Positions 3,258-31,858 of a stretch of 64,000 nt of DNA are shown one piece after another (within the stretch, counting starts at the first letter, position 1; every line of letters starts with the position of its first letter). The notes below the pieces were generated by a model. The model did not search any database and was not told the origin of the DNA. It worked only from the letters and a program-made list of their open reading frames with translations. This DNA is from Squalus acanthias (Eukaryota). The stretch is taken from assembly GCA_030390025.1 (NCBI GenBank), contig CM059432.1, positions 1,116,001-1,180,000 of the forward strand. The letters are read 5' to 3'. Both the position numbers and the translations under genes were made by a program.

Positions 3258-3416
<159 letters not shown>

Positions 3417-3462
3417 TGAGTGAGGCGGGCCGGTCACGCTGAGGCGGCTCGGCGAGCGAGCG

Positions 3463-3795
3463 CTCGGCTGCACTCGGGGACACCGCTCGGCTCTGCTTCG
3501 GGAACACTCGGGACCGCTCGGCTCAGCTTCGGGAACACTCGGGACCGCTCGGCTCAGCTTCGGGAACACTCGGGACCGCTCGGCTCAGCTTCGGGAACAC
3601 TCGGGACCGCTCGGCTCAGCTTCGGGAACACTCGGGACCGCTCGGCTCAGCTTCGGGAACACTCGGGACCGCTCGGCTCAGCTTCGGGAATACTCGGGAC
3701 CGCTCGGCTCAGCTTCGGGAATATTCGGGACCGCTCGGCTCAGCTTCGGCTGCACTCGGCTCCTCTTCGGGTCCCTTCGGCTGCACTCGGCTCAT
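3463..3795. repeat. 31-bp GC-rich minisatellite
   Basis: About 8 near-perfect units of cgggaacactcgggaccgctcggctcagctt with degenerate flanks. Confidence 0.95.
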
Positions 3796-4237
3796 GTCCG
3801 TCTGCTCCACCTCCCATTCATAATTTCTGCTGCTTTCGCCGCGCTGCCTTCTGCACCTTCACTCATCTTTTTTTATATAAAGACTGAACGTCCCCCCCCC
3901 AAACAAGTCACTTTACACCCCTCCTCCACCTTTTAATGATAGCACAGAAGGAGGCCATTCGGCCCATCGTGCCTGTGCCGGCTCTTTGAAAGAGCTCTCC
4001 AACTAGTCTCACTCCCCCTGCTCTTTCCCCATCGCCCTGCAATTTTTTTTCCATTTCAAGTATATAATATCAAACATTTTTTTTGCGCAGCAGTGGGGTA
4101 TCCCACTTACTTTGTACAACAAATAATGCTGCAAACAAGGTGAAATTCATTAGCTCTTTCATTGTTTCTCATCTTTTTACTCAAGACTTTCTAACCCCAT
4201 CTTAATCCCTTCCTAGTGTGCTAGATTTCAATTTGTC

Positions 4238-5225
4238 CATAGAATCATACAGCACAGGGGGAGGCCATTCGGCCCATCGTGCCTGTGACGGCTCTTTGGA
4301 AGAGCTCTCCAATTAGTCCCACTCCCCCTGCTCTTTCCCCACAGCCCTGCAAATTTCTCTTTTTCAAGTATTTATCCATTTCCCCTTTGAAAGTTACTAT
4401 TAAATCTGCTTCCACCGTCCTTTCAGGCAGCGCGTTCCAGATCACAACAACTCGCTGTGTAAAAAAAAAAAAATTCTCATCTCTCCTCTGGTTCTTTAGA
4501 AACATAGAAACTAGGAGCAGGAGTAGGCCATTCGGCCCGTTGAGCCTGCTCCACCATTCAATACGATCATGGCTGATCATCCAAATCCAGTACCCTGTCC
4601 CTGCCCCCTCACACAGAATCCCCATCGAGCCTGCACCGACACATATCCCACCCTATCCCCGTAACCCCACGTATTTAATTCCCCCTAACATATCCCATCC
4701 TATCCCTGTAACCCCACATAGTTAATCCCCCCCTAACACTAAGGGTCAATTTTTCATAGCCAAATCACCTAACCCGCACATTTTTGGACCGTGGGAGGAA
4801 ACCGGAGCACCCGGAGGAAACCCACGCAGACACGGGGAGAATGTGCAAACTCCACACAGACAGTCACCCGAGGCCAGATTCGAACCCGGGTCTCTGGCGC
4901 TGTGAGGCACCAGTGCTAACCACTATGCCACCGTGTTGCCAATTATCTTAAAATCTGTGTCCTCTGGTTACCGACCCTCCTGCCAGTGGAAACAGTTTCT
5001 CATTATTTACTCTCTCAAAATCTTTCATAATTCTGAACACCTCTATTAAATCTCCCCTTCACCTTCACTGCTCTAAGAACAACAATCCCAGCTTCCCCAC
5101 ATAACTGAAGTCACTCATTCCTGATACCATTCTCGTAAATCTCCTCTGCACCCGCTCCAAGGCCTTGGCATTCTTTCTAAAGTGCGGTGTCCAGAATTGG
5201 ACACAATACTCCAGCTGAAGCCCAA
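4238..5225 (-). mobile_element. CR1 LINE 3' end split by an HE1-type SINE
   Basis: FFTQRVVVIWNALPE motif; CR1 tail at 4238. Confidence 0.85.
4499..4940 (-). mobile_element. HE1-type V-SINE, full length
   Basis: tRNA head (ggtggcatagtggttagcact...gggttcgaatc), V-domain and CR1-like tail. Confidence 0.9.
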
Positions 5226-7541
5226 CCAATCCATTTTCCTTATTTATTGTGTTTTAAAGAAAGATGGTTTTGTTAAAAGTAGTCAATTCATTACAAAAAC
5301 TCCCAGTATTTTAAAATGTAAACTGATGGAAGGAAAGAAATTTGCAGGGCTACGGGGAAAGGGCAGGGGAGTGGGACAAGCTGAAGTGCTCTTGCAGAGA
5401 GCCGGCACGGTCTCGACTGGCCGAATGGCCGCCATCCGTGCTGTAACCATTCTATGATTCTAACTTGTCTGAACAGGCCATTTTAATTCATGGGTAGGAA
5501 AATTAGTTCCTATTAGTCTGTGGTGTTGTAATGGTAAATTTTATAGGCTGCCTACATAATGAAGGAAGAGCAAGTTACAGCTTGTATTGACAATTGGTTA
5601 AATATTTGAAGTCAAATTTTTGCATAAAGATGGTTGGAAAAAGATTGCCACTATTCTGCAAATAATGTACTTGGAGCTGTGAATATTAAGAGCTTCTTGC
5701 ATGCATGTGGAAGCAGAATTTTCTAGGATACATAATAAGTTGAGGATGATGCACCTTGTTATAGAAAGGATCATTTTAAACTATTCTTGGATTGAGATTT
5801 TAAGATGAAACTGGTTTTTAAAGATTCACTGACGTGTTTAGATGACACCCATGTGTTTAGATGACACCCATGCTTTTAAGTAAATACCGTCTGGCGTTAT
5901 AAAGTTTTTCATCCATCTAGTCGTGTTGGGGACGTGCCTCTGCTTCTTGCGGAATGTTTTAGTTCAGCGACTAATTGTGTGAAATGCCCTCTTCCAATCA
6001 TTCAGTATGTTGCACTGTTTCTGCGAGAGTTATTTGACAAGCCTTTGACTTTTAAGGTGAGCTGAATGTTGCAGAGTACAGCAAAAAAAAATAAGTTGTA
6101 CAGAGCGCACCTCTAAATGGAAGATTCTGACCATGTTCAGAAATGCTAAGTACCTAAAAATGAGTGAATTAGTTGTGACGATTGCATTTGGTGTTTGTAA
6201 TACCAGTAACTAAATGTGTATTTATCGACCGTGGCAGCCTTGAAGCTTCTTTTCTTCTCTTCCTGATTGAGCAGCCAGTATGCACTGCAGCAATATGGAA
6301 ATGCAGAAGTGTGGTAGTGGGTCGCATTGCATATAGAAGGCAGTTGCAATACAGTGGAGGGCTATAATATATTTTGCATGATGTAATCACCAGCCAGTCA
6401 CAAGATAGGAATAATGTCAGGTGCTTGGTAAAATCCCTCCATTGACATCAAGCACAGAGAACTAGTCAGATTGACGTCTCCGAGTTCTTTGTCAGTGACT
6501 TGTGTATTAATCATCCCCACATGTCATAATATATAATAATTGTGCTTGGCATGATTATAGGATTTATTACCTGTATGTATGTATGTTGCATATTTCCAGA
6601 TTTATTGTTATTTCTCTTGCTTATCGATGCCTTTATCTTAAGTCTGTGCAAGTGAAAGGTTTTTAAACTGAGGTCCTTGGACCCAAGGGATCTGGGAGAT
6701 GGACAGAAGTCTCATTATACATCACCAATTTGGTTATTTTCTGTACTTGCTAGCATGTTAATTCTGTTGCTGTACATTTTTTTAAAAATCTTAAATTAAA
6801 GCATTGCTTTCCTCTTGGGTAATTGATACTTCTCGAAATTGGGACAGCAGGTTGTGTCAATATTTGCAGGGGCTGCCCCCACACAGCAATACGTATGGCA
6901 ACCGTTGATCGAGCACCCTTCTCTCGGTATCCTTCACACCACAGCCCCTTTTGTCATCTCTGCATCTCCAGATAATATTGGCCAAAAATAAGTCCTATGT
7001 TCCTAAGTCCAAGCATCCCAAACTGTTCTGTCACCTGAAATCTTGGCGTTTATTGAACACCTGAAAGCTGTTTCTTGCCACAAACTCACCTCCTGACTGA
7101 TCATCAGCCTGAGGATGTTAGTGCTGAGAAATGGTACATTTTTCCTATTTCCTACACCCAATGCCCTCTTGTCAGTTTTGCTCACTTGTCCGTGCCCTCA
7201 TTGAGGGTTGTAGGTTCAAGCCCTGCCCCAGAGTTTGGATGAATAATTTAGGCTGATACACCAATGTTGGATTATTACATCGCGTGTACAGCACAGAAGC
7301 AGGCCATTCGGCCCAACTGGTCTATGCCGGTGTTTATGCTCCACACGAGCCTCCTCCCACCCTATTTCGTCTAACCCTATCAGCGTTTCTTTCTATTCCT
7401 TTCTCCCTCATGTACTTATCTAGCTTCCCCTGAAATGCATCTGTGCTATTCGTCTCAACTACTCCATGTGGTAGCAAGTTCCACATTCTCACCACTCTTT
7501 GGGTAAAGAATAGGGTTGTTAGAGATGCTTCCTTCAAAGGA

Positions 7542-7951
7542 ACAGAAACTGATAGCCAAGTTCCGCACTCATGAGGATGGCCTCAATCGCGATATCGGGT
7601 TCATGTCACGATACAGAACGTGACTTGACATCATGGCCGGTCTTTCCAGGTGTTTTTTTTTTTTTAAAAAGACTAACACAAGAACCAACACAAATTGACA
7701 GGATATGCAGCCAGCAGGTGTTTTGACACGTTGGACCCCCTGGGACACATCTCATTGTCTTGGCTGTGCTCTTAGTGTGTCTTTGATGTAGGGAAAGATT
7801 TGAATAGATTTTTTCTGTGCTTATATTGTGAAATCTGGGAGATTCTCTCACAGCTACTCTACCTGAGGAAGGAGCGAACAGCTCCGAAAGCTTGTAAAAT
7901 TAAATAAATCTGTTGGACTATAACCTGGTGTTGTGCGACTTCTCATTTTTG
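7542..7951 (+). mobile_element. Penelope-like family B 3' end
   Basis: 7540-7623 encodes EQKLIAKFRTHEDGLNRDIGFMSRYRT* (PLE GIY-YIG C-terminus). 12-bp TSD tccttcaaagga at 7530-7541 and 7952-7963. Inserted in an old Deu-SINE. Confidence 0.85.
7860..7896 (+). ncRNA. Minimal type I hammerhead ribozyme motif (PLE family B)
   Basis: UAC-CUGAGGA-A-GGAGC(GAACA)GCUCC-GAAAGCU-U-GUA. Confidence 0.75.
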
Positions 7952-7989
7952 TCCTTCAAAGGAGACATCAAACTAAGGCCTCCAACCAC

Positions 7990-8680
7990 AGGAACATAGG
8001 AACAGGAGGAGGCCATTCAGTTCCTCGTTCTGCCTGTTCTGTCATTCAGTTAGATCATGGCTGATCTGTATCTCAACTCCATTTACCCGCCTTGGTTCCA
8101 TATCCCTTAATTACCCTTACCGAGCAAAATATCTATCCATCTCAGTTTTGAAATTTTCAATTGATCCCCGGCCTCAACAGCTTTGTGGGGGAGAGAGTTC
8201 CAGATTTCCACTACCCTTTGTGTGAAGTGCTTCTTGACATCACCCTTGAACAGCCTGGCTCTAAATTTAAGTTTATGCACCCTTGTTCTGGACTCTCCCC
8301 CCCCCCCAATGGTTTCTCTCTCTCTCCCCTATCAAATCCTTTAAATCATGTTAAACACCTCAATTAGATCACCCCTTAATCTTCTGTACTCCAAGGAATA
8401 GAAGCCTAGTCTATGCAACCAGTCCTCATAATTGAAACCTTTTAGCCCCAGTATCATTCTGGTGAATCTGCGCTGCACCCTCTTCAAGACCAATATATCC
8501 TTCCTGAGGTGTGGTGCACAGAACTGAACGCAGTGCTCTAGATGCGGCCTATCCAGAGCTTTATACAACTGTAGCGTAACTTCCACCCCTTGTATTCTAG
8601 CCCCCCTTGAGATAAAAGCTAGCATCCCATTAGCAATTTTAATTATTTTTTGTACCTGTCACTAGCTTTTAATGATTTTT
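7990..8680 (-). mobile_element. CR1 LINE 3' fragment
   Basis: LYKALDRPHLEHCVQF...RRLRGDLIEVF. Confidence 0.85.
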
Positions 8681-8714
8681 GTATCAATATTGCAAAAAAA
8701 ACCCCACTAACTGG

Positions 8715-9050
8715 GCACTTCACAGGAGCGTTATCAAACAAAATTTGATACCGAGCCACATACGGAAATAATGGGGCAGATGAACAAAAGCTTGGTCAAA
8801 GAGTTAGGTTTTAAGGTGCGTCTTAAAGGAGGAGAGAGAGGTTTAGGGAGGGAATTCCAGAGCTTAGAGCCCGAGGCAGCTGAAGGCACGGCCGCCAATG
8901 GTGGCGCCATTAAAATCGGGGGACGTGCAAGAGGCCAGAATTAGAGGAGCGTAGAGATCTCAGCGGGTTGTAGGGCCGGAGGAGGTTACAGAGATAGGGA
9001 GGGGTGAGGCCTTGGAGGGATTTGAAAATGAGAATTTTAAAATTGAGGCA
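8715..9050 (-). mobile_element. L2 LINE 3' fragment
   Basis: Similar to 919-1312 and 32462-32900. Confidence 0.75.
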
Positions 9051-10020
9051 TTTCTCCCAGGTTGGGTATACTGTAGCCCAGCTTGCTGCAGAATAAAACC
9101 CTTGAACTTTGCCCCAATCTTTCAGCATCCTGTCCTGCTCCAGTGTTACACTTCCCCATTTCCCAGCATGATGTTAATTAGCGGCATTTTGATGCGGTTC
9201 TTGCACCACGAAGAACCAGATTAAGAGGCCAATCTCATTGCAGGAAGGACTCGTGGATTGATTTTGATCTCTAGTCCCCTTTAATTTTTGTTTGTAATAT
9301 CCACCATTTTACATTGGAAAAACTGGCCCAAAACTAAGATGTGTTTTATTGTGAAGACACTTATAGATGCAAAATCACAGTTGAAGACAATCTACAGCAC
9401 AGGTTTTTAAAAAGTTTGAAAACCAAACTGGAACTAGACTCTGCCAGCTACTAAGTAGGGTCCTGTCAAAGTAACTGGTGGGAAGAAGAGCTATTAAGCA
9501 AAAGTTGGTGTGTTCTACTTTAATGTGGCACTTGAAGCCTCTTCAGAGCAGTTGAGAGCTACTGTGTAGGTAGATTGTGATGCTGCATGGTGAAACTGAG
9601 TCATCAGGCGATAAACTGGAATCAGTGAGTTATGTTGGTCTGCAAGCATGTACAATTCCACAAAAATAATCATGCATCATTTTCATGTTGGCTAAAGTTA
9701 TGATCAGAAGGGGTCCTCTGGACTAGTACGAATAACTGGCAAGTCCTTGCTCGCCAACAAACCAGTGGCGTTCTGGAAAAATATTATGCAGAGTTAGTCA
9801 GCTGTGGCTCAGTGGGTAGCACTCTCGCCACTGAGTCAGAAGGTTGTGGGTTCAAGTCTCACTCCAGAGACTTGAGCACAAAAAGCTAGGTTGACACTCC
9901 AGTGCAGTGCTGAGGGAGTGCTGTATTGTCGGAGGTGCCGTCTTTCGGATGAGATGTTAAACCGAGGCCCCGTCTGCTCTCTTGGGTGGATGTAAAAGAT
10001 CCCATGGCACTATTTTGAAG

Positions 10021-10229
10021 AAATCGCACAACACCAGGTTTTCGTCCAACAGCTTTATTTGAAATCACAAGCTTTCGGAGCGCTGCTCCTTCGCAGGTCA
10101 CTTCACCTGACGAAGGAGCAGCGCTCCGAAAGCTTGTGATTTCAAATAAAGCTGTTGGAGTATAACCTGGTGTTGTGCAATTTCTCACATTTGTCCACCC
10201 CAGTCCAACACCGGCATCTCCACATCATG
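10021..10229 (+). mobile_element. Penelope-like family B fold-back insertion
   Basis: Inverted arms ~10020-10098 and 10105-10184, ~45-nt tail, imperfect 12-bp TSD actattttgaag/actatttcaaag. Confidence 0.85.
10103..10139 (+). ncRNA. Minimal type I hammerhead ribozyme motif (PLE family B)
   Basis: UCAC-CUGACGA-A-GGAGC(AGC)GCUCC-GAAAGCU-U-GUGA. Confidence 0.8.
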
Positions 10230-10907
10230 ACTATTTCAAAGAGCAGGGGAGTTCTCCCCGGTGTCCTGGCCAATATTTATCCGTCAATCAACATCATTAA
10301 AACAGATTATCTGGTCATTATCACATTGCTGTTTGTGGGAGCTTGCTGTGCACAAATTGGCTACCGCATTTCCTACATTACAACACTTCAAAAAGTACTT
10401 CATTGGCTGCAAAGCGCTTTGGGATGTCCGGTGGCCATGAAAGGCGCTATAGAAATGCAAGTCTTTCTTTAGTGCCGACCCATTGTTGTATCGTGAGTTT
10501 GCTGTTTACCATGCAGCATATGAGTTTCTGCATCTGTCGCGCAAGGGTTTGAACTTGCACTTTTCGTATTTACGAATTGGTCAGTAGGTTAGTGTACTCT
10601 TTGCCAAGATTGGAGCCAAACTAACCCGATGAAAGGTTGGAATGAAGTCAGTTGCTTTGTGACAGACTTCTAATTTGACACTTAATAAATTTGTAGTGTT
10701 CCAGGGCACTGATTGACCAGCCACCCTGGAATATTAATGGGTTCTACAGGTGGAGGAGCTGAGAATTCATCCCACTCTCTTCCAGGTAACCCTGCAAGCC
10801 AATTCGGTTGTATTTTAGCCAGTTAATTTGCAACCTACTCAGAGGGTCTCTCAGCCTTGCTTCTAGCCTGACTACAGTCGAGCGCTTTGACTTTGTGTCT
10901 CTCTCTA

Positions 10908-11260
10908 CAGGAACATATGAATTAGGAGCAGGAGTAGGCCATACGGGCCCTCGAGCCTGCTCCGCCATTCAGTAAGATAATGGCTGATCTTCGACCTCAA
11001 CTCCACTTTCCCGCCCGATCCCCATATCCCTTGATTCCCCTAGAGTTCAATAATCTCAGCCTTGAATATACTCAACGATTCAGCATCCACAGCCCTTTGG
11101 GGCAGAGAATTCCAAAGATTCACAACCCTCTGAGTGAAGAAATTCCTCCTCATCTCAGTCCTAAATGTCTGACCCTTTATCCTGCGACTATACCCACTAG
11201 TCCTAGACTCTTCAGCCAGGGGAAACAATTTCTCAGCATCTACCCTGTCAATCCCCCTCA
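10908..11260 (-). mobile_element. CR1 LINE 3' end
   Basis: TEMRRNFFTQRVVNLWNSLP motif. Confidence 0.85.
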
Positions 11261-11547
11261 GGAAGAGTGTGTTAATTCCGTATTGGGCAATCAGAAGCTC
11301 TACTTGTGTGAATTGCTCGGTTTGGGGATTCTTAGTATGGTGGTGGGTTTCTACGTATGTATTGATTTAAAAAAATGTGTCAAGTTATCAGTTTTCTTTT
11401 ATCTTATGGCAGAATTGCAATGTGCAGGGACTAAAAGTTGTTCAGGTAAGAGTCATTCTGAAACTTCTCTGCTGTGAACAGTTTCAATATGACACTACAG
11501 AGAGTCATTACTAATTGACACTCGGCAGTACCTGGGCCAATTCGGTT

Positions 11548-12240
11548 CATAGAAATTTACGGCACAGAAGGAGACCACTTGGCCCATCGTGTCTGTGCCG
11601 GCCGACAGCTATCCAGCCTAATCCCACTTTCCAGCTCTTGGTTCGTAGCCCTGTAGGTTACGGCACTTCAAGTGCATATCCAAGTACTTTTTAAATGCGA
11701 TGAGGGTTTCTGCCTCTGCCACCCTTTCAGGCAGTGAGTTCCAGATCCCATCACCCTTTGGGTGAAAAAAGTTCTCCCCAACTCCCCTCTAATCCTTCCA
11801 CCAATTACTTAAATCTATGCCCCCTGGTTATTGCTAAGGGAAATAGGTCCTTCCTATTCACTCTATCTGGGCCCCTCATAATTTTATGCACCTCAATCAA
11901 GTCTGTTCCAAAGAAAACAATCCCAGCCTCTCCAATCTTTCCTCATAACTCAAATTCTCCAGTCCTGGCGACATCCTCGTAAATCTCCTCTGTACCCTCT
12001 CTGTAGTTCAGTCACATCTTTCCTGTAATGTGGTGACCAGAACTGCACGCAGTATTCTAGCTGTGGCCTAACTAGTGTTTTATACAGTTTAAGCATAACC
12101 TCCCTGCTCTTATATTCTATGCCTCAGCTAATAAAGGAACGTATTCCATATGCCTTCTTAACCACCTTATCTACCTGTCCTACCTTCAGGGATCTGTGGA
12201 CATGCACTCCAAGATCCCTCTGTTCCTCTACACTTCTCAT
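11548..12240 (-). mobile_element. CR1 LINE 3' end flanked by ~145-bp direct repeats
   Basis: CR1 tail at 11548; direct repeats at 11402-11547 and 12243-12385. Confidence 0.85.
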
Positions 12241-12629
12241 TTTCTTGCGGCACAAATGCAATGTGCAGGTACTAAAGTTGTTCGAGTAAGTCATTCTGAA
12301 ACTGCTCTGCTGTGAATGGTTTCAATATGACATTACAGAGTCTCATTACTAATTGACACGCAGCAGTACTTGGGCCAGTTCAGTTAGGTCGGATACATTG
12401 AGGTTGTCTGTATAATGAAACAAATTTGAGCACTACATGGACTGCACACATGTAACACAAGGATAAATGGTCAGATATCTCTTGCAACTTTGCTGTGTGC
12501 TTCCAGTACAATATTTTAAAGTTACAGTGTCCCCAGTTTTAAATGAAAGTACAATAGATGAGGCTCTGACATCTTTAGCACTATTTTTGCAGTGATCTCC
12601 ACCATTTGCCTCTTGCCAGTTACTGAATT

Positions 12630-13165
12630 GGAAATAAAAACAGAAAATGCTGGAAATACTCAGCAGATCAGGCAGCATCTGCGGAGAGAGAAACCGAGTT
12701 AACGTTTCAGGTCGATGACCTTTCGTCCGAACGGGAAAAGGTTTAAGATGGAACAGGTTTTAAGCAAGTACAGAGGCAGGGAAAGGGGGGAGGGGAGGGA
12801 AGATCTGTGATAGGATGGAAGGCGGGAGAGATTAAATGACAAAAGGTATGATGGTAAAGAAACAAAAGGTGGGTTTAGAGGGGGTGTAAATGGGAATGGC
12901 AGAATCATCAGCAACAGCTGCTGTCAAAAAAATGGGGGTGGAGGTTATGATCTGAAATTATTGAACTCATTGTTGAATCCAGAAGGCTGTAAAGTGCCTA
13001 ATCGAAAGATGAGGTGCTGTTCCTCGAGCTTACGTTTGAGCTTCATTGGAACAGTGTAGGAGGCCGAGGACAGAGATGTCAGAGTGGGAATGGAGTGGAG
13101 AATTAAAGTGACAGGCGACCGGAAGCTCGGGTTCACGCTTGCGGACTGAATTGGAACTGAGGTGT
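12630..13165 (-). mobile_element. Penelope-like family A 3' end
   Basis: KLEEQHLIFRLGTLQPSGFNNEFNNFRS. The hammerhead core is mutated (CGGACGA). Confidence 0.8.
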
Positions 13166-13443
13166 TGACTGGGAGTTGATGTGACTACACAAACTGCGTG
13201 CTCTTACCAGTGAGCTGCTACTGTGAAGTCTTACTAGTCTTGCAATTAATTTGCAATACTCTCCCACACTTTTAAGCAGCTGGGTGAGCAAGTGGAATTT
13301 GGAAAATGGATTATTTTTAGTTGATGAACTGTTTGAAGAAAATGTTCTTTAAAAAATGTTACTGCTAGTTGTTGTCCATCTTAGTAACTGAAAAATACTG
13401 TAGAGCCTTCACTCTCTTCCTATTTTATTCCATTTTCTCTCCG

Positions 13444-13875
13444 TGTCAGCTGTGGCTCAGTTGGTAGCACCCTTTCCTCTGAGTCAGCAGTTCAGGTCCC
13501 ACTCCAGAGACTTGAGCACAAAAATCTAGGCTGGCACTCCAGTGCCAGTACTGAGGGAGTGCTGCACTGTCGGAGGTGCCATCTTTCGGATGAGACGTTA
13601 AAACCAAGGTCCCGTCTGCTCTCTCAGGTGGACGTAAAAGAGCAGGGGATTTCTCCCTGGTGTCCTGGAGCCAATATTTATCCCTCAATCAACTTAACAG
13701 ATTGTCTGGTCATTATCACATTGCTGTTTGTGGGAGATTGCTGTGTGCAAAATGGTTGCTGCATTTCCTATATTACAACAGTGACTCCACTTCAAAAGTG
13801 CTTCATTGGCTGTAAAGCGCTTTGAGACGTCTGGTGGTCGTGAAAGGCGCTATAGAAATGCAAATCTTTGTTTTC
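13444..13875 (+). mobile_element. Deu-SINE (SacSINE1-like)
   Basis: Head, partial Deu domain and tail. Confidence 0.85.
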
Positions 13876-15079
13876 CTCTCACTCCTAAATTATGCCAGAT
13901 GCTGTTTTTGGTTGTATTAAAAAAAATCTTATTTTAAATCAGATGATTGTGAAAGTTAGTTTCTAGGAACATGGTTGCCCATTCATTTTGAATCTAATTG
14001 TGCTTTCTATATCCATAACTGGATTGTTTTACTCACCCACCCAAAAAACCTACAAATGGCAAGAAAGAAGCATTTTTTTCCAATTATTCACCTGAACACT
14101 AATTTATAGTTTTTACTTCTAATAATAGCTCCGGGGACAAGACAAAGAGACTTTCAAACGTGTTAAGTAAAAATAATGGGCAAGAGTCTGGAGTGATGTG
14201 TGCGGCATGCACGATGTGGACCTAAACGTGTATATAGTATACGAAGGTTGCACTCCTTGAAGAAAGCTGCACAACTTCAGAGTCAACTTGACGCACTACA
14301 CAACCCGGGAGTGAGAAACCTTTCTGGAGCAGACGTTTCAGAGAGTGGTCACCCTACAGACCATTGGGCGTGCAGCATCTGTCCAGGGAGACTGGATGAC
14401 CATCGGCAGACAGGGCAGGAAGGGACAGGTGAGGGTAGAAAGGGGAGCACCTGTGGAGCTGAATTTGTCTAATAGATGTATCTGTTTAGGTACCGGTGAT
14501 GTGGACAAAAAGGGTGACAGAGGAGGGTAAGCATGAGCTACTACAGGGCAATGAGAGTGAGTGGTTACCAACGGGGAAAATCCATAAAACCTTGTGGAAA
14601 CGGTAAATAGGACAGTGGGGGAAGATTTAAACTAGTTAAGGAGGTGGAGGGGAAAATGCACACCAAGTTAAAAAGACCAGCAGGACATAGAGGCAGGACG
14701 CGGACAGTTACCTAGATAGGAGTTCTGTACAGAAATGCGCATATCATAAGATATGTAAAACAAGTGAATTGCAAGCACAAATTCAGCTTAACAGGTATGA
14801 TGTCGTAGTGGTTACAGAGACCTGGCTACAAGCTGAGCATGATTGGGAGCTAAATATTCCAGCCTACAGGATCTTCAGAAAGGGAAATTGGGGAGTAGCA
14901 GTATTGATAACCAAGGTTGGGGGGGAAATATATAGATAGAGATGAGTAAAGCATGTGGTTATAATGGGAGATTCAAATTTTCACGTGAACTGGGGAAAGC
15001 AGAACCGTTCAAACTGCAAAGCAATGAATTTCTAGAGTGTATTCAGGGCAGTTTTCTAGAACAATATGTTCTAGAACCA

Positions 15080-15577
15080 AAAACAACAACAATTTATATT
15101 TATATAGCGCCTTTAATGTAATAAACCGTCTCAAGGCACTTCACAGGACTGTTAGATTTTAAAAAATTGACACCGAGCCATATAAGGAGATGTTAGGCCA
15201 GATGACCAAAAGCTTGATCGATGAAGTGCGTTTTAAGGAGCGTCTTAAAGGAGGAAAGAGAAGTAGCGAGGCGGTGAGATTTAGGGAGGGAATTCCAGAG
15301 CTTAGGACTCACGCAGCTGAAGGCACGACCACCAATGGTGGAGTGATGAACGGTCAGAATAGGCGGAGCGCAGAGGGCTGGAGGAGATTACAGAGATGAG
15401 GAGGTGCGAGGCTATGGAGGGATTTGAAAACAAGGATGAGCATTTTAAAATCGAGGCATTGCTTAATTGGGAGCCAATGTAGGTCAGCAAGCACAGGGCT
15501 GATGGGTGAATGGGACTTGGTGCGAGTTAGGACACGGGCAGCAGAGTTTTGGATGACCTCAAGTTTATGAAGGGTAG
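15080..15577 (-). mobile_element. L2 LINE 3' end
   Basis: (caa)n tail and shared L2 body. Confidence 0.8.
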
Positions 15578-16603
15578 AACAAGGGATCAGTCTATACTGG
15601 ATTCAGTTAACAATCTGACGGCAAGGGAGTATCTTGCAAATAGTAACCATAATATAATTGAATTTGATACTGGGTTTAAGAGGGAGAAGGCAGAGGTACA
15701 AACCAAGGTTTTAAATTTAAGTAAGGCAAACTTCAGGATGAGAAATAAATTGACGACTGGGCTTAACTGTTAACGAGTAAACTTACAGACAAACATTGGG
15801 AAGTATTCAAATAAGTAATTGGTACAATACAAACTAGTAGATAACCCTAAAAGGCAAAGGCTCCACAACAAGCAACCATGACCAACAAACGAGGTAAGAG
15901 ACAGCATCAAGCAAAAAGAAAAGTCTTGCAAGATGAAGTGGAAATCCAGGTATAAAAAGCAGCAAAGGCATACAAAAAGAAAGTAATCGGGTGCAAAAAA
16001 GGGAATGTGAAAATAATCTTGCGAGGGATATCAAGGCTAATAGCAAAAGTTTTTATCAATATGTCAGAGTGGCAAAGGGGAATTGGGGCCCATTAAAGAT
16101 GGATGCAGGTGTGACTATAATGGATAATAAGGAAATGGCAGACTTGTTGAATGAATATAGTAGAGGAAGAGGACAAAATACCAGTGGTACAAGGGAACCT
16201 AAAAATAAGTCAAGGGGAGGAACTTCATTGGATTTAATGTTTAAAAAAAAAAAAAAAAATGGTAATGGGGAAAATAATGTGACTTAAGATGCACATCTCC
16301 AGGACCTGATGGATTCCACCCCAGGGTATTAAGACAAATAGGTGAGGAAATTGCAGATGCATTAGTCTTAACTTTCCAATACACTCTAGATTTGGGAATT
16401 GTGCCTTTTGGGTTTAAGAAGAGATGGAGGGAGGAACCCGTCAGATTAACATACAATGTGGGGAAATTATTAGAATCTTTCATCAGGGAAAGCGTGACTG
16501 AACACTTGGACAAGTATGAGTTTATCAAAGAACGTCAGCATGGATTTGTGAAAAGTAGGTCATGTCTGACTAATCTAGTTGAATTTTTTGAGAAGGTCAC
16601 TAG

Positions 16604-16768
16604 CAATGTGCCCTGTTAATTTTTTGGGGGGCTGAGCAGCCCCTTTAACGGGCTGCACGGCCCATTCAAAATTCTGCGCATGCGCGGTTTTTCCCTTTAA
16701 AAGCCAGTGAGCCAGCTGCACGGGACCTCCAGAGTGCTGCGTGGCCGCCCAGCTTAAAGGGAACATTG
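16604..16768. mobile_element. hAT-type MITE (165 bp)
   Basis: TIRs caatgtgccctgttaa / ttaaagggaacattg. 8-bp TSD gtcactag/gtcacaag. Interrupts CR1 RT sequence. Confidence 0.8.
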
Positions 16769-17477
16769 GTCACAAGTATGGTGGATCAGGGCGTGCCTAT
16801 GGATGTTGTCTACATGGACTTCCAGAAGGCATTTGATAAGGTGCTAATTTGCACCCACTGCACAAGTGGGCAACTTGTTCCAAAGATCAATGACCCTCTG
16901 TGAAATGAAAAAGCTCCTGACATCTAACCCAGTTATATGCTTGTGTAATTCATACGCTTGTCCCCTCATTCTTCCTAATGGATCTAATTAAAATAATCTG
17001 TCCACATGTGCACAGTCCAGTCCTTTCATCAAACAATTTGCCTTTCTCCCTCTTTACTGTATGTGTGACTTTGGTTTGAGTATACGCGTCTTGAATTTAA
17101 TGTGTAAAGTCTATTAACCTGGGCTATGCTTATACTTAGAATGGATCACAGAGGGAAGAGCCATCTGTTTCTTGTTAACTAGCTAGTGAGAGGAAAGTTG
17201 AAGATGAAAGTTTTCATTCTTCCCTAAGTTAATAAGATCCTGTTTCTATTTTTGGTCTGATTCCTCAAGATTGAGAAGCAATTCTCTGTCCCTGCGGTGA
17301 CTTAAAAGTGTCCTTAGAGTTCATTTAATAGCTTTCTGTGTCCCATGATAAGGTTTTTCCAAGAGTAATGAGTTTAAAAATATTTGGATTTACTTCCTTT
17401 CTCCAATGTTGAGTTGTAATTCTTCATATGTTGCGGTGCACCTCTTGAAAGCGAACTTATTTCATTGAAACGCATAT

Positions 17478-17860
17478 CTCATTGAAACGTGTAAAATTCT
17501 TAGAGGGCTTGACAGGGTAGATGCTGAGAGGTTGTTTCCCATCTGGAGAGTCTAGAACCAGGGGTCACAGTCTCGGGATAAGGGGTCGGCCATTTTAGAC
17601 TGAGATGAGGAATTTCTTCACTCAAAGGGTTGTGAATCTTTGGCATTCTCTACCCCAGAGGGCTGTGGATGATCAGTCGTTGAGTATATTCAAGACCGAG
17701 ATCGACAGATTTTTTGACTCTTAAGGGAATCGAGGGGAATATGGAGATCGGGCAGGAAGGTGGAGTTTTGGTAGAAGTTCAGCCATGATCTTACTGAATG
17801 GCGAAGCAGGCTTGAGGGGCTGTATCGCCTACTCCTAATCCCATTTCTTGTGTTCTTATT
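17478..17860 (+). mobile_element. CR1 LINE 3' end
   Basis: Typical CR1 ORF2 C-terminus and 3' stem-loop tail. Confidence 0.85.
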
Positions 17861-18479
17861 TCTGATTAGTAACAAGAATAGCAAGGGTTTGGTTATAAAA
17901 TACATACAGGGGCACACGGAGAAACTGAGTCTCTTTTTTTTTTAATAAGTTGAGACTGTCAAAAAATCAAATGCTTTGGTACGTTACCATATTGTGCCAC
18001 ACATTGGTAGAAGTGAGTTTGTATATGTGAGCTTCCTAGAGTGAAGTATTTCTTTTGAGGGAGGACAAGTCAGGAGAGTGAGTCATACATGTAGACAGCC
18101 TCGCAGTTGGCTTAAAACGCCTGAACATCTTGCTTTCCAATTCTATATTTGAATGTTATGTAAAGTTGAGACTAATGCACTTTTCAGACCATAGCTGATT
18201 GAAAGGTATTCATGAAATCAGCTAAAATACAATATTGACTGTGCTACTCTACTGAACTGAATTCTGCTGAAAGGTGACCTTGCCAACCCAGGCTGTGACA
18301 TTTCCTGTCGGGCTGCTTGCGAATGTTCCCGTAGCTAACGTCAGCAGGAAAGGAAATCCTGAAATGACTGGTCTGCATAGAGGGATGTGCCGATTATTGA
18401 AATATTCTTTCTCTGCCTATGCCCAGATTTCTGTGTTGATGAATTACAATAAGTTATGGATTTTTTTTTAATTCCCTAG

Positions 18480-19975
18480 ATTTGGGTGGCGCTGGGTAGG
18501 CTGTATTTGTTGACCAATCTTATTTGTGCTGAGCCTTGAACGGTTGTAGTCCTTGTGGTGTTGGTGCTCCTACAATGGTGTTAGATAGGGAAATCCTGGA
18601 CATTGACCCAGTGACGATGAAGGAACGTTGATGTATGTCCAAGTAAGGATGATGCGTGGCTTGGAGGTGATGGTGTTCTATACTATTGCTGCTCTTGTCC
18701 TTTTCGGTGGTAGAGATTGCAGGGCAGAAGTGTACTGTTGAAATAGGCTTGATGCGTTGCTGCTATAGTACGTACTGAAGCTAGAGTCCGCCGGTTCTGT
18801 AGGGGTGAATATTCAGTTCAGTGGTGTTGATTTAGCAGACTGCTTTGTCCTGGATGCATAAGTGTTGCATCTGTACCCATCACGGTGATTGCTGAGTGTT
18901 CCATCACACTTCAGATAGAGGCATTGTGGGGCCATCAGGTAAGCCACATGTTGCAAAGTACCCAGCCTCTGCCCTGCTCTTGCAACCACAGCGTTGATCT
19001 GGTTGGTGCAGTTAAGCTTCTGGTCATTGCTGACCCTCAATATGTTGATGGTTGGGCTCTTTGCAATGATGGTGGTGTTGAACTAAGGTCAGTGTCAGCC
19101 TTGGCTCAGTTGGTAGCACCCTCACCTCTGAGTCAGAAGGTTGAGGGTTCAAGTCTCACTCCAGGAACTTGAGCACAAAATCTAGGCTGACACTTTAGAG
19201 CGAGTGCTGCACCGTCGGAGGTGCCCTATTTCAGATGAGACGTTAAACTGAGGCCCGTCTGCTCTCAGGTGGATGTAAAAGATCCCATGGCACTATTTAG
19301 AAGAAGAGCAGGGGAGTTATCCCTGGTGCCCTGGTCAATATTTATCCCTCAACCAACATCACTAAAAAAAAGGATTATCTGGTCATTATCACATTGCTGT
19401 TTGTGGGAGCTTGCTGTGTGCAAATTGGCTGCCAAGTTTCCTACATTACAACAGGAACTAAGCTTCAAAAAGTACTTAATTGGCTGTAAAGTGCTTTGGG
19501 ACGTCGGTGGTCGTGAAAGGCGCTATGTAAATGCAAGTCTTTTCTTTTTAGGTGTAGATGGTTCAGCTTTCTTTTGTTGCAGATGATTATTATCTGTCAT
19601 TTGTGTGGCACGATTATTACCTGCTACTTGTCAACCCAAGCCAGGATTTTTTTATTTGTTCCTGGGATGTGGGTGTCGCTGGCAAATGCGTTTATTGCCC
19701 ATCCCTGGATGTTTTCCAGGTCCTGCTGTAGGCTGCCATAGGCTTCTTCATTGTTGAAGGAGCTATGGAATCAGCAGCAAACAGCCCCTACAGTGATGTC
19801 CTAGAGCTGCAATGATTGGCCTCTCATAACTATCACCATCTTTCTGACTCTAGCCACTGGAGAATTTTTCCCTTTGAACCCCATTGACCTCAGTTTTGCT
19901 AGGGCTCTTTGATGTTGTACTTGGTTGTACGCTGCCTTGATGTCGAGGCCAGCGACTCGCACCTCTCCCATTTTC
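18480..19975 (-). mobile_element. Degenerate CR1-group LINE (family C) split by a Deu-SINE
   Basis: RAGQRLGTL... and GEVRVAGLDIKAAY... motifs; related to 53050-53975. Confidence 0.65.
19093..19548 (+). mobile_element. Deu-SINE (SacSINE1-like)
   Basis: Full head, Deu domain and tail. Confidence 0.88.
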
Positions 19976-20009
19976 CGTTCAGTGCTTACAGTAGGAACCA
20001 ATTAAGATT

Positions 20010-20128
20010 ACATGAGCTGATTTCACACAGGACCCTTATAGACAACATAGGAAAGAGACTTTTATCCTAGCAATCTGGTCTGGATTTGAATCCAGGAGGT
20101 GAAACATCAGTGTCTGACCACACCCCAC
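20010..20128 (-). mobile_element. LF-SINE-like old SINE fragment
   Basis: Minus strand tttcacctc...ggattcaaatccagaccag...aaagtc...cctgtgtgaaatcag resembles the LF-SINE 5' part and 21500-21610. Confidence 0.5.
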
Positions 20129-20856
20129 AATTCTTCTTGTTGGCTTGCTTTCATAATAAATTAATAAAGATTTTGGCTTGTCATGGATGCAGTCATGACT
20201 GTGCATGCATTTGCTCATTGACTTGTATTCATATAGCACCTTTTAATGTAACAAAACATCCCAAGGCACTTCACAGAAGAGAGAACAGATTGATTGGCTG
20301 TAGAAAAATTAGAGGATGTGACTGAATGCACAGATGAAAAGGTAGATTTTGAGGATACTTAAATATTGGATAGACAATAGCAAGGCAAAGAGGTTCAGGG
20401 GAAGTTCCAGAGGTTAGGACTTGCGGGGCTAAAAACACTGCCACCAAGTTAGGGAGCACCCAGTGATGGCCGATGAACAGGAGGCCAGAATTGGAGATCT
20501 GTTGTGCCAGAGGAGGTGCAGAGAAGACCATGGGTGGATTTGTCAGCAAGACCAGGAATTTGAATTTGGTGCATTGGGCAGGGAGTCGGTGAAGGACATT
20601 GAGGGGTAATGGATTAATGGGATTTAGTGTGGCATTGGATGAGGGTGCTGAAAGACTGCTGATGCTGGGATAACTATTTTATTGGCTGAGAAATCACCTT
20701 CTGTTTCTTATTTGCTGGACTGTCCTGTTTGAATTTCATGGGGTTGTAAGTTATAGAATCAGGTTAAGAAAGGACTGCTCTTGCTCTTACTTCATTCAGG
20801 GATAAGTCCCAATCGGAACGCCGAGATCTTTGCCATTTAATGGGAAGATAGTTTAA

Positions 20857-21447
20857 AGAAAGAAAGAAAAACTTGCATTTCTGTATCGCTTTTCACGACC
20901 ACCGAACGTCCCATAGAAACATAGAATCTAGGAGCAGGAGTAGGCCATTCGGCCCGTCGAGCCTGCTCCACCATTCAATACGATCATGGCTGATCATCCA
21001 AATCCAGTACCCTGTCCCTGCTTTAATCCCCACAGTACACATATCCCACCCTACCCCCGTAACCCCACGTATTTAATTCCCCCTAACATATCCCATCCTA
21101 TCCCCATAACCCCACATATTTAATCCCCCCCTAACACTAAGGGTCAATTTATCATAGCAAAATCAACCTAACCTGCACATTTTTGGACTGTGGGAGGAAA
21201 CCGGAGCACCCGGAGGAAACCCACGCAGACACTGGGAGAATGTGCAAACTCCACACAGACAGTCACCCGAGGTCAGATTCGAACCCGGGTCTCTGGCGCT
21301 GTGAGGCACCAGTGCTAACCACTATGCCACCGTGTTGTCCCAAAGTGCTCTACAGCTAATGAAGTACTTTTTGACGTGTAGTCACTGTTGTAATGTAGGA
21401 AACGCGAGAACCAATTTGCGCACAGCAAGCTCCCACAAACAGCAACA
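20857..21447 (-). mobile_element. Deu-SINE tail split by an HE1-type V-SINE (~20914-21338)
   Basis: HE1 head, V-domain and tail between gtccca repeats; host SINE tail on both sides. Confidence 0.85.
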
Positions 21448-21499
21448 TAAGCACCTTGGTAAGCACTGATGCGATTCACAAAGATAAAACACTTGGATA

Positions 21500-21610
21500 T
21501 GGGGAACTAAGTGGCGTGGCAAGTTAGAGATTGGCCTTTCCTTTCTGGGACCTGGATTTAAATCCATTCTCAGACCGATGGGATAAAAGTCTCTGCCTGC
21601 TGGCTGTTAA
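21500..21610 (+). mobile_element. LF-SINE-like old SINE fragment
   Basis: ggcctttcctttctgggacctggatttaaatcc...gataaaagtc...ctgctggctgt. Confidence 0.5.
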
Positions 21611-21913
21611 ATTAGTTTACTGGGGTTGTCATTTCTTCAAAGAAATTGAGGAGGATGTGGAGACAGGATTTTGCCCACTGAGCTCCAAGATTATAAAGTT
21701 GGAAACTGTTACCAGCTTGTGGACTGTGCTGCCTGTGTTTAATTTACCGTCATACTCAGCTGATTTTAGTTTTGGGTTATTAAGAACGCAGTTGTTTACA
21801 GAGATGGAGTCATTTTGTTCTCTCCAGTCCATGGAATAGGTTTGACTATGAAATTTAAAACTCCAGATCTCTAGTTAGTGCAGAAAAAGATTCAAAATAT
21901 GTGTTTGCAATAT

Positions 21914-22376
21914 GTGTCAGCTGTGGCTCAGTTGGTAGCACCCTCGCCTCCGAGTCAGACGGTTGTGGGTTCAAGTCCCACTCCAGAGACTTGAGCACAA
22001 AAATCTAGGCTGGCACTCCAGTGCAGTGCTGAGGGAGTGCTGCACTGTCTGAGGTGCCGTCTTTCAGATGAGACGTTAAACCGAGGCCCCGTCTGCCCCC
22101 TCAGATGGATGTAAAAGATCCCACGGGCACTATTTCGAAGAGCAGGGGAGTTCTCCTCGGTGTCCTGGCCAATATATATCCCTCAATCAACATAACATAA
22201 AAACAGATTATCTGGTTATTATCACATTGCTGTTTGTGGGAGCTTGTTGTGTGCAATTGGCTGCTGCATTTCCCACATTACAACAGTGACTACACTTTAA
22301 AAGTACTTCATTGGCTGTAAAGCGCTTTGGGATGTCCTGAGGTCGTGAAAGGTGCTATAGAAATGCAAGTCTTTTT
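21914..22376 (+). mobile_element. Deu-SINE (SacSINE1-like), full length
   Basis: A-box tggctcagttgg, B-box ggttcaagtcc, Deu domain and L2-like tail. Confidence 0.9.
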
Positions 22377-22835
22377 TGGTGTGATTTTCACCCAGAGAAC
22401 ATTGCGGCCATGTCTTAATATTTTTCAAATATTAGTATGTTGTAGTCTGCTGTAGAAGCAATGTACTTTCTTCAAGGTCAACTTTTCCTTTAGTCCGTTC
22501 CAGTATATGAATGGCATGGTGACGTTAAAATCTTTGTACATGTCTTTGAGGAGGAAGAATTCTAAGATGCCGTTTATTGTGTACTGGAAATTACGTCTTT
22601 ACCAGGGGTTTTTGTTCATAATTTATGGGCAATATTCAGCAAGCATTTCAGTAGATTGTACTGCATGACATTACGTACTCTAGTACTTAAATGTTTACTT
22701 TGTCAATATTAAAAATTGATTGTTGAATCATATCAAAATCAGAACGTTGAGTTAAAATTCTGTTTGCACCCTATTCCAGAACCTTGCAATTAGGGAAGTG
22801 GTGGATGATTCAGCTTAAATGTCAGTCTCCACGGC

Positions 22836-22870
<35 letters not shown>

Positions 22871-23519
22871 TCAAGCCCTGCTCCGGAGACTTGAGCACTT
22901 GATCTAGACTGGCACTTCAAGTACAGTATTGAGGGAGTCTTTCGGATGAGAAGCTCAACCGAGACACCGTCTGGCGCCTCAGGTGGATGTAAAAGATCCC
23001 ATGGCACTATTAGATGATTTATTTCATTGCTGTTTGTGAGAGCTTGCTGTGTGTAAATTGGCTGCCGTGCTTCCTACATTGCAACAGTGACTACACGTCA
23101 AAGTTACTTCATTGCTTGTGCCCACCAGGTATTTGGCCCTTCGAACTGTACCCAACAACCTGCTCCATCTTTCTTCTGCACAGTGCTGCCTCAGTACATA
23201 CAGCTTTGCTAACAATCTTAGTACACACTGCAAGGTAATGTATGAAGTACTGTGTGAACGCAGTGTAAGCTGACTGAATCTGATAATGTATTAAAGTTTA
23301 GAAATAAGTCATCTCAAATCTTTCCCTTCTCCCTAACCCCAGAAAGAATTATAGCTTTTTTTTTTTACAGTATTCCTTCAAGGATGGTACACTTTCTGTG
23401 CAAGATTAGATCACAACAGTTTGCTTTCTTCTTTAATATGATGTGCATTAAAGTGTAGAAATGCACTCTCTTGTGTTACCATATGTAAAATATTGTTGAG
23501 GTAGTGTTATATACCATAT

Positions 23520-25467: not shown

Positions 25468-25867
25468 GAGGTGGATTGTGCCTTTTTGGAGTGTAAATGG
25501 GATCTCAACATAAGGCCATTTGGTCTGTTCTCGTTCGTTCATAAAGAATTCAACAGTTCTATTTACTCCCTCTGTGATCCACCTCCCCCATCTCTCTTAT
25601 TTTCAAATGCCTGTTTGTCTTTGTTCTTTGTTCTGATGAAAGGTTTCATGCTCCAGGTCAATAACCGGCTTTTCCTTGTGCAGATGCTGACTGATCTGCT
25701 TTGTAGTTCCTGTATTTTATCTTTTTATTTCAGATTTCCAGCATTTGTAGTTTTATTTTATTTTCCAGCTGCATACATCTATTGGTAACCAGCGGTTTTG
25801 GTTTGACCAGCTGCTTGCTTCATGTACAGCCAAGTGCCAATTTACATAAAATTACATAGAATTTTAT

Positions 25868-26315
25868 GGGATGTGGGCGTCACTGGCAAGGCCAGCATTT
25901 ATTGCCCATCCCTAATTGCTCTTGAGAAGGTGGTGGTGAGCCGCTGCCTTGAACCGCTGCAGTCCCTGTGGTGAAGGTACTCCCACAGTGCTGTTAGGTA
26001 GGGAGTTCCAGGATATTGACCCAGCGACAATGAAGGATCGGCGATATACTTCTAAGTCAGGATGGTGAGAGACTTGGAGGGGAACTTGGAGGTGCTGGTG
26101 TTCCCATGCGCCTGCTGCCCTTGTCCTTCTAGGTGGAAGAGGTCGCGGGTTTGGGAGGTGCTGCCGAAGAAGCCTTGAAGAGTTGCTGCAGTGCATCTTG
26201 TAGATGGTACACACTGCAGCCACGGTGCGCCAGTGGTGGAGGGAGTGAATGTTTAAGGTAGTGGATGGGGTGCCAATCAAGCGAGCTGCTTTGTCCTGGA
26301 TGGTGTCGAGCTTCT
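25868..26315 (-). mobile_element. CR1-group LINE family C 3' end
   Basis: KLDTIQDKAARLIG...SWNSLPNSTVG; tail gggcaataaatgctggcc. Confidence 0.8.
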
Positions 26316-26455
26316 TTACAGCACAGAAACAGGCCATTCGGCCCCACAAGTCCATGCTGGTGTTTATGCTCCACACAAGCCTCCTCCCACCCCTCTTCAT
26401 CTAACCCTATCAGCATATCCTTCTATTCCTTTCTCCCTCATCTGCTTAACTAGAT

Positions 26456-31735: not shown

Positions 31736-31858
31736 TTTTCAAATTTGGTAAAGGGTATCATATGTTTAGTGTTGCATTTGCTATAGTATGAGCAGAATAT
31801 GGTACTGTCATTGTGGTGGTACTGTTTTTAATTGTATATAATTTTCATGTATTTATAG

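What the first reader, a model, noticed from the sequence alone, without database searches (positions are those of the whole stretch)
7542..10229. Two intact sense-strand hammerheads 2.2 kb apart in TTC39C intron 1, with covarying stem I
Seen: both motifs have a complete CUGANGA/GAAA core, GGAGC/GCUCC stem II and the palindrome AGCU in place of stem III. Stem I covaries (UAC/GUA at 7860 vs CAC/GUG at 10104). The first follows a PLE GIY-YIG C-terminus within a 12-bp TSD, tying the motif to a Penelope-like element. Established: PLEs carry minimal type I hammerheads that cleave poorly alone but work as dimers through the palindrome. Inference: the two independent insertions could dimerise in cis on the pre-mRNA and cut after 7893 and 10135, releasing a ~2.24-kb RNA that could circularise. 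Caveat: the second motif competes with its own fold-back hairpin.
Basis: partly seen in the sequence, partly recalled or inferred. Interest (0 to 1): 0.7.

Follow-up and report, generated by a model that had tools for sequence, protein, structure and literature searches.

The report
Two stray Penelope hammerheads, mismatched pair
Two small self-cutting-RNA motifs really do sit in the first intron of this gene, but they are separate leftovers of a very common jumping gene; one is predicted to be locked in its own hairpin and the two are predicted to fit each other badly, so they likely do not cut out an RNA circle.

Summary
Observation confirmed. Both minimal hammerhead cores are present (7860-7896, 10103-10139), sense in a 28.4-kb intron 1 of a TTC39-family gene. 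Each lies in its own insertion with a 12-bp target duplication. They belong to a Penelope-like (Neptune-type linker) family with 40,892 exact motif copies in this genome, including an intact tandem element (L031).

The cis-dimer and circle idea is not supported:
(1) The stem I covariation separates two subfamilies (23,587 C-G, 13,111 U-A, only 322 C·A copies). In a double hammerhead stem I forms between copies, so this pair gives one wobble and one C·A mismatch.
(2) Motif 2 is transcribed after its own antisense arm; opening that hairpin costs a predicted 58 kcal/mol.
(3) About 515 same-strand pairs this close are expected by chance.
(4) Intact cores in host-gene spans show no sense depletion (37 sense, 34 antisense; weak test).

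No RNA evidence could be obtained. The motif class, inverted arm and tail are published, and the scan met this element in many other introns. Low-level, protein-assisted cleavage of motif 1 is not excluded.

The parts
3416..31858 (+). Intron 1 (28.4 kb) of the TTC39-family host gene (TTC39C by recall)
   Evidence: donor seen; in-phase exon at 31859-31907; PF10300 exons on +
7530..7541 (+). Left target-site duplication of insertion 1 (last 2 nt also match the element)
7542..7951 (+). Insertion 1: 5'-truncated PLE copy (end of ORF, 3' region, hammerhead, no tail), U-A subfamily
   Evidence: 94-95% identical to the nearest fetched copies; ORF end identical to L031
7540..7623 (+). Last 27 codons and stop of the PLE RT/GIY-YIG ORF
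   Evidence: tblastn 100% over 27 aa to the L031 frame
7860..7896 (+). Minimal hammerhead 1; predicted cut after 7893 (CUU); 3-bp stem I
7903..7908 (+). AATAAA carried by the element
7952..7963 (+). Right target-site duplication of insertion 1 (12 of 12 identical)
9795..10420 (+). Host SINE interrupted by insertion 2 (HE1-like by recall); ends approximate
   Evidence: other copies run through the site without the insert
10010..10021 (+). Left target-site duplication of insertion 2
   Evidence: 10 of 12 identical to the right copy; each differs from the common SINE sequence by one CpG transition
10019..10096 (-). Inverted 5' arm of insertion 2; its own hammerhead core lacks one base; transcribed before motif 2
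   Evidence: self-match 91.6% over 166 nt
10103..10139 (+). Minimal hammerhead 2, C-G subfamily; predicted cut after 10135 (CUU); fully paired to the left arm in the predicted fold
10145..10150 (+). AATAAA carried by the element (inside the hairpin)
10193..10230 (+). About 37-nt PLE tail ending at the ORF start codon
   Evidence: the same stretch leads into the ORF in L031; 30-40 bp tail described in PMC8557442
10231..10242 (+). Right target-site duplication of insertion 2

Best explanation
The two motifs are the hammerhead-bearing ends of two separate, truncated insertions of one very abundant Penelope-like retroelement family, from two different subfamilies, and at this site they are likely inert passengers that do not cut the host RNA together. 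In the parent element the motif would work as a like-with-like dimer between the two repeats that flank the ORF (identical motifs 3,046 nt apart in L031; inferred from published work). In such a dimer each stem I is built from the 5' strand of one copy and the 3' strand of the other (inferred from the geometry). Here that gives C-G, A-U, U·G at one junction and C-G, A-U, C·A at the other. Motif 2 is made just after its own antisense arm and is predicted to zip into a hairpin of about 80 bp before it can pair with anything else. Motif 1 has no stem III of its own and would stay uncut without a partner. The RNA is likely spliced out with the intron; the hairpin would be an ordinary intronic double-stranded RNA.
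For: Copy number: 40,892 exact copies, control 0. Stem I classes: 23,587 C-G, 13,111 U-A, 1,879 U·G and 322 C·A of 38,899; 8,257 C·A expected if independent. Intact tandem element with identical motifs. Separate target duplications. Dimer energies: mixed -14.9 against -18.7, -20.7 and -20.7 kcal/mol for like pairs. Hairpin -140.4 kcal/mol, z -19.9; opening motif 2 costs 57.9. The dimer costs 81.1 in a fold of 7830-10250, and still 23.8 with the left arm masked. Head-to-head pairs are common: 19 pairs among the first 100 listed copies. About 515 same-strand pairs within 2.3 kb are expected by chance. No sense depletion of intact cores: 22 sense to 19 antisense in 120 stretches (1.19 Mb) and 15 to 15 in a neurexin-like span; pooled 37 to 34, sense share 0.40-0.64. 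Published: minimal motifs are inactive alone and weak as dimers (PMC4209133); no RNA-seq ends were found at the cut site of the anole element (PMC11167929).
Against: The natural dimer spacing (3,046 nt) shows that 2.2 kb is not too far. One junction of the mixed dimer keeps three pairs, and U·G at that place is a natural class (1,879 copies). The anole PLE ribozyme is protein-assisted (PMC11167929) and an intact ORF exists in this genome, so nearest-neighbour energies, which ignore the tertiary core and proteins, may understate activity; even the like pairs are only marginally stable in the model. None of the first 100 listed copies had a same-strand neighbour within 2.3 kb (4 pairs within 5 kb). 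The orientation test is weak, assumes each span is one gene, and would miss slow cleavage that splicing tolerates; for this family alone unpaired intact cores were 10 sense to 13 antisense. A preprint reports that Xenopus retrozymes avoid introns (10.64898/2026.07.22.740005).
Confidence: 0.87

Rival explanations
1. Motif 1 alone is cut at a low level, by pairing in trans with a like (U-A class) hammerhead from another transcript, probably only where the element's own protein is expressed and assists folding. Motif 2 stays silent and no circle forms.
For: Motif 1 has no inverted arm of its own. 13,111 copies share its stem I class. An intact ORF of the same subfamily exists. The anole PLE ribozyme needs its protein (PMC11167929).
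Against: The like dimer of motif 1 is barely stable (-0.3 kcal/mol against two hairpins) and the motif is predicted open only 3 times in 10,000 in its local context. The stem I is 3 bp. The triplet is CUU, while GUC and GUA are described as the fastest (PMC3138052). No sense depletion was seen.
Confidence: 0.08
2. One reading: the two motifs dimerise in cis on the pre-mRNA, cut after 7893 and 10135, and release a 2,242-nt RNA that a tRNA ligase could close into a circle.
For: Both cores and both palindromes are intact and sense. The pairing pattern is nested and can be drawn. The spacing is close to the natural 3 kb. Dimeric hammerheads do yield circles in amphibian retrozymes (PMC7229834).
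Against: The mixed dimer has a C·A mismatch and a wobble in stem I and is the weakest of four modelled. It costs +81 kcal/mol against the free fold. The antisense arm is made before motif 2 and can also capture motif 1 (-103.7 kcal/mol duplex). The two inserts are independent and such pairs arise by chance.
Confidence: 0.02
3. The inserts affect the host transcript without catalysis: the sense AATAAA after motif 1 causes some premature polyadenylation, or the hairpin is edited and alters intron processing.
For: Sense AATAAA at 7903 and 10145; a very stable hairpin.
Against: No RNA data. Sense copies, which all carry this region, are not depleted in gene spans.
Confidence: 0.04

Closest known systems
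Minimal hammerheads (min-HHR) in pLTRs of metazoan Penelope-like elements (Cervera and De la Pena 2014, PMC4209133; abstract, results and discussion read)
   Same: Type I core, one extra base before stem II, G-C closing pair, palindrome in place of helix III, short helix I, thousands of mostly single copies in variable families, opposite-strand pairs close together, tandem copies about 3 kb apart around an RT ORF.
   Different: Stem II is 5 bp (7-8 bp in the Schistosoma families). The cleavage triplet is mostly CUU. The copy number (40,892 exact) is well above the 4,000-9,000 given for coelacanth and Xenopus. No shark family appears in the text I read; supplements not read.
Canonical C-terminal-EN PLEs with the CX2-5CxxC linker (Neptune/Nematis type; Craig et al. 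2021, PMC8557442; passages read)
   Same: A single RT plus GIY-YIG-like ORF with a CX4CxxC linker and a CCHH-like motif, partial tandem forming pLTRs, 5' truncation, inverted 5' copy, 30-40 bp tail.
   Different: The clade was not fixed by a tree. This family makes clear 12-bp duplications at non-microsatellite sites.
Non-LTR retrozymes and their circular RNAs (PMC7229834, passages; bioRxiv 10.64898/2026.07.22.740005, abstract, first part of results, passages)
   Same: Dimeric type I hammerheads release a unit that is circularised; derived from or related to PLE pLTRs.
   Different: Retrozyme units are 170-400 nt tandem repeats with like motifs. Here two unlike motifs flank 2.2 kb of unrelated intron and are not one element.
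Conserved intronic hammerheads of amniotes (mentioned in PMC7229834; details recalled)
   Same: Sense hammerhead in an intron of a host gene.
   Different: Those are few, conserved and complete as monomers (recalled). These are recent high-copy repeats that need a partner. Conservation across species could not be tested.

Membership tests
PLE minimal hammerhead (min-HHR) | CUGANGA and GAAA core with NUH site | tested here: met
   H is U in both
PLE minimal hammerhead (min-HHR) | Palindrome at 15.1-16.1 with no helix III; extra base before stem II; G-C closing pair | tested here: met
   against the criteria in PMC4209133
PLE minimal hammerhead (min-HHR) | Compensatory change in stem I across the family | tested here: met
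   38,577 of 38,899 copies pair at the third position; copies are related, so this counts few events
PLE minimal hammerhead (min-HHR) | Located in the pLTR of a PLE | tested here: met
   L031 has the motif on both sides of a 919-codon frame
PLE minimal hammerhead (min-HHR) | Self-cleavage as a dimer | not testable with these tools
   only folding models
Canonical EN+ Penelope-like element | One ORF with RT and C-terminal GIY-YIG endonuclease | tested here: met
   RVT_1, E 2.3e-8; the endonuclease was read by eye from its motifs and not matched by Pfam
Canonical EN+ Penelope-like element | Partial tandem or inverted pLTRs, 5' truncation, 30-40 bp tail | tested here: met
Neptune clade | CX2-5CxxC linker before the endonuclease (absent in Penelope/Poseidon) | tested here: met
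   CX4CxxC in the L031 frame; criterion from PMC8557442; also present, reduced, in Nematis
Neptune clade | Placement in an RT tree | not tested
   no reference PLE proteins were fetched
Non-LTR retrozyme | Tandem 170-400 nt units with like hammerheads | tested here: not met
   two separate insertions with own duplications and unrelated DNA between
Host-exapted intronic ribozyme | Conservation at the orthologous site or selection on the motif | not testable with these tools
   no related genomes are held; both motifs match their subfamily sequence, as young neutral copies would

The most novel reading that the evidence does not exclude
Where the intact element is expressed, its protein chaperones hammerhead dimers not only on its own RNA but on host pre-mRNAs. 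The thousands of sense intronic copies, motif 1 among them, would then be conditional cut sites, and at loci with two accessible copies host intron pieces would be cut out and circularised. At this locus that would be the 2,242-nt piece only if the hairpin is unwound or edited open.
Probability: 0.05. Interest if true: 0.6.

Novelty: new member of a known kind. Interest (0 to 1): 0.13.

Why it matters
As it stands it is ordinary: two of some 41,000 copies of a published motif class. Two things are useful. First, stem I covariation between neighbouring copies argues against, not for, their working as a pair. Second, the session gives a first small orientation test in this genome, and it shows no purge of sense intact cores from gene spans. 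The family is a good test bed for the open question of whether PLE hammerheads cleave in vivo, because an intact tandem element (L031) and natural like and unlike pairs are available. If intronic copies were cut, a transposon would be laying conditional RNA cut sites and circle precursors across host genes.

Tried and rejected
Rfam at gathering score: 0 matches in the window; uninformative for minimal motifs. Loose core pattern: not enriched in the window. Pfam on two short window peptides: no family; my exon 1 reference was out of frame and the other peptide was only 27 aa, so neither result means anything. Sequencing runs: no RNA holder listed; 4 runs, best share 0.11. No reads were laid on the locus, so coverage, ends, editing and junctions are untested. 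Lunse et al. (PMC5785218), the main dimer-cleavage paper, is not held; I know it only through the review PMC6765202 (passages). Literature searches: (Penelope-like, Neptune, hammerhead, shark; 21 papers with at least 3 terms, 20 listed) showed none on shark PLE hammerheads by title or abstract start; (intronic, hammerhead, retrotransposon, orientation bias) gave 0 papers; (exon tethering) listed 4 papers that I did not open, so tolerance of intronic cleavage is recalled only. Rejected: monomer activity (a 2-nt loop III cannot close); the inverted arm as an evolved switch (19 head-to-head pairs among 100 listed copies, and it is the described insertion form); covariation as selection at this locus (each motif matches a large subfamily); the pair as two pLTRs of one element (separate duplications and different subfamilies). 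Two binomial lines used hand counts of 8 to 8 that the same script corrected to 7 to 7; they were redone and are not used.

Full report
Observation. The sequence shows both motifs exactly as described. Each has CUGANGA, one extra A, a 5-bp stem II, GAA, the palindrome AGCU and U at position 17, with predicted cuts after 7893 and 10135, 2,242 nt apart. The host gene is a PF10300 (TTC39 family) gene on the + strand. With the donor at 3416 and an in-phase exon at 31859-31907, intron 1 is 28.4 kb and both motifs are sense. The name TTC39C, the label HE1 for the SINE and the assignment to a shark are recalled or come from earlier scan notes, not from a call. The loose core pattern is not enriched in the window (10 against 6.56 expected) and Rfam reports nothing, so the case that the motifs are real rests on the family.

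The family. The pattern shared by both motifs occurs 40,892 times exactly in the 3.71-Gb genome, against 0 for the reversed control; that is about one per 91 kb. Variants outside the pattern exist, so this is a floor. A same-strand pair 3,046 nt apart on C1 (L031) is an intact partial tandem: ORF end, pLTR with hammerhead, a 919-codon open frame, pLTR with an identical hammerhead. The frame has an RVT_1 match, a CX4CxxC linker and GIY-YIG-like and CCHH-like motifs read by eye. By the criterion in PMC8557442 (passages) the linker places it with Neptune-type and not Penelope/Poseidon elements; no tree was built.

The two insertions. Insertion 1 (7542-7951) carries the last 27 codons of that ORF at 100% identity, the 3' region and motif 1, between identical 12-bp duplications. 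Insertion 2 (about 10019-10230) interrupts a SINE whose other copies run through the site. It has its own 12-bp duplication with two CpG transitions and consists of an inverted arm, motif 2 and a tail of about 37 nt that ends at the ORF start codon. Inverted 5' copies and 30-40 bp tails are the described insertion form of PLEs. Among the first 100 listed copies there are 19 head-to-head pairs within 3.5 kb, 10 of them within 300 nt.

What the covariation means. At the third stem I position the genome holds 23,587 C-G, 13,111 U-A, 1,879 U·G and 322 C·A copies, 38,899 in all; 8,257 C·A would be expected without linkage. This supports a real stem I maintained in the source elements, though the copies are related and the count reflects few events. 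The two window motifs simply match two subfamilies, down to their flanks. In a double hammerhead the palindromes pair antiparallel, so each core uses the cleavage site and 3' stem I strand of the other copy. This is inferred from the geometry and fits the legend of Fig. 1A in PMC4209133; I could not see the figure. For this pair one junction gets C-G, A-U, U·G and the other C-G, A-U, C·A. The modelled mixed dimer is -14.9 kcal/mol, against -18.7 (motif 1 twice), -20.7 (motif 2 twice) and -20.7 (L031). Relative to two free stem II hairpins the values are +1.5, -0.3, -6.3 and -2.1. The covariation therefore argues against the two working together.

The hairpin. The stretch 10010-10240 folds at -140.4 kcal/mol (z -19.9; 0 of 200 shuffles as stable). 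Keeping motif 2 open costs 57.9 kcal/mol. In a fold of 7830-10250 the dimer costs 81.1, and 23.8 even when the left arm is barred from pairing. The arm is transcribed before motif 2, so motif 2 never exists without it, and it can also pair with motif 1 (-103.7). Motif 1 alone folds no better than shuffles (z 0.26). These are nearest-neighbour models without tertiary contacts or proteins: the hairpin result is far outside their error, the dimer ranking is only indicative.

Is the arrangement special, and is it selected against? At genome density about 515 same-strand pairs within 2.3 kb are expected by chance. Among the first 100 listed copies there were 4 within 5 kb and none within 2.3 kb. 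To test for a purge of sense copies I oriented spans between same-strand exon matches of myosin, TTC39 and laminin-G genes and fetched 120 stretches (1.19 Mb, window excluded). Intact cores of this and a second hammerhead family were 22 sense to 19 antisense, and broken cores 23 to 22. For this family alone intact cores were 10 to 14, and unpaired ones 3 to 6. In a neurexin-like span on C1 the listed exact copies were 15 to 15, unpaired 7 to 7 (the C-G listing stops 0.47 Mb short of the span's end). Pooled: 37 to 34 (sense share 0.40-0.64); this family 25 to 29; unpaired 17 to 16. A strong purge is excluded, a mild one is not. The spans are assumed to be single genes, and slow intronic cleavage may be tolerated by splicing (recalled).

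Literature. PMC4209133 (parts 1 and 2 of 4 read; supplements not read): minimal motifs are widespread in metazoan PLEs, inactive as monomers and weak as dimers. PMC11167929 (passages): the anole PLE ribozyme is protein-assisted, not needed for insertion in vitro, and no RNA-seq ends were found at its cut site. PMC7229834 (passages): dimeric hammerheads in short tandem retrozymes yield circles. bioRxiv 10.64898/2026.07.22.740005 (abstract, first part of results, passages; supplements closed): Xenopus retrozymes are under-represented in introns, and 1 of 9 dimers cleaved in vitro. PMC3138052 (passages): H may be U, but GUC and GUA are fastest. PMC6765202 (passages): review of the dimer model. 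Searches listed no paper on this shark family or on orientation bias of intronic PLE hammerheads. Unseen supplements may list such families.

Results against my reading. The natural spacing is 3 kb, so distance is no barrier. One mixed junction keeps three pairs. An intact protein-coding copy exists that might chaperone dimers. No RNA data were obtained for or against cleavage.

Verdict. The motifs are real and of a published kind, in two chance neighbours from different subfamilies; one is predicted to be locked and the pair is mismatched. They are likely inert (0.87). Low-level cleavage of motif 1 in trans gets 0.08, non-catalytic effects 0.04, and the cis dimer with a circle 0.02. Earlier scan notes on other introns reached similar readings; they are not counted as evidence. 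Interest 0.13.

Noticed in passing
window 59246-59434: Near-perfect 189-bp palindrome (99.5%) of a second PLE hammerhead family (ACGU palindrome), with the fold point inside the core; the sense copy is intact (59339-59363). Likely a very young fold-back insertion.
   Followed up: partly
window 1556-1578 (-), 12630-12855, 46636-46712, 47002-47103, 49449-49518, 50222-50476: Further copies of the second hammerhead family; only 1556-1578 has an intact core. A decayed PLE ORF piece lies at 50678-51342 (-), 23% identical to the L031 frame over its main match.
   Followed up: partly
L031 (G000:C1:5493500-5500500, - strand): Intact partial-tandem PLE: 919-codon open frame between two identical hammerheads 3,046 nt apart; the natural substrate for a dimer test.
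   Followed up: yes
L038 (G000:C1:11808001 and 11810966, - strand): Two like (C-G class) intact motifs 2,965 nt apart and sense in a neurexin-like span; the upstream one has an inverted arm. A second example of the arrangement, better matched than the window's pair.
   Followed up: partly
L044:1286-1452 (-): One subfamily's pLTR and tail lie directly upstream of another subfamily's hammerhead, giving two unlike same-strand motifs 166 nt apart.
   Followed up: no
L046-L165: 23 of 24 intact copies of this family in gene spans have U at position 17 and only 1 has C; some subfamilies listed have C. A CUU cleavage triplet as the main form is unusual.
   Followed up: partly
fetched loci: In 29 of 82 distinct copies (set enriched by my own picks) an inverted arm lies within 200 nt upstream; most fold points fall within 20 nt upstream of the core, not at the predicted cut site.
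   Followed up: partly
window 3470-3760: GC-rich tandem repeat of about 22 bp just inside intron 1.
   Followed up: no
window 42071-44227 (-): 718-codon open frame of a CR1-like LINE (label recalled) in a later intron.
   Followed up: no
G000:C8:1094768 (+), 21 kb before the window: Laminin-G domain match on the same strand, in line with the recalled LAMA3-TTC39C gene order.
   Followed up: no
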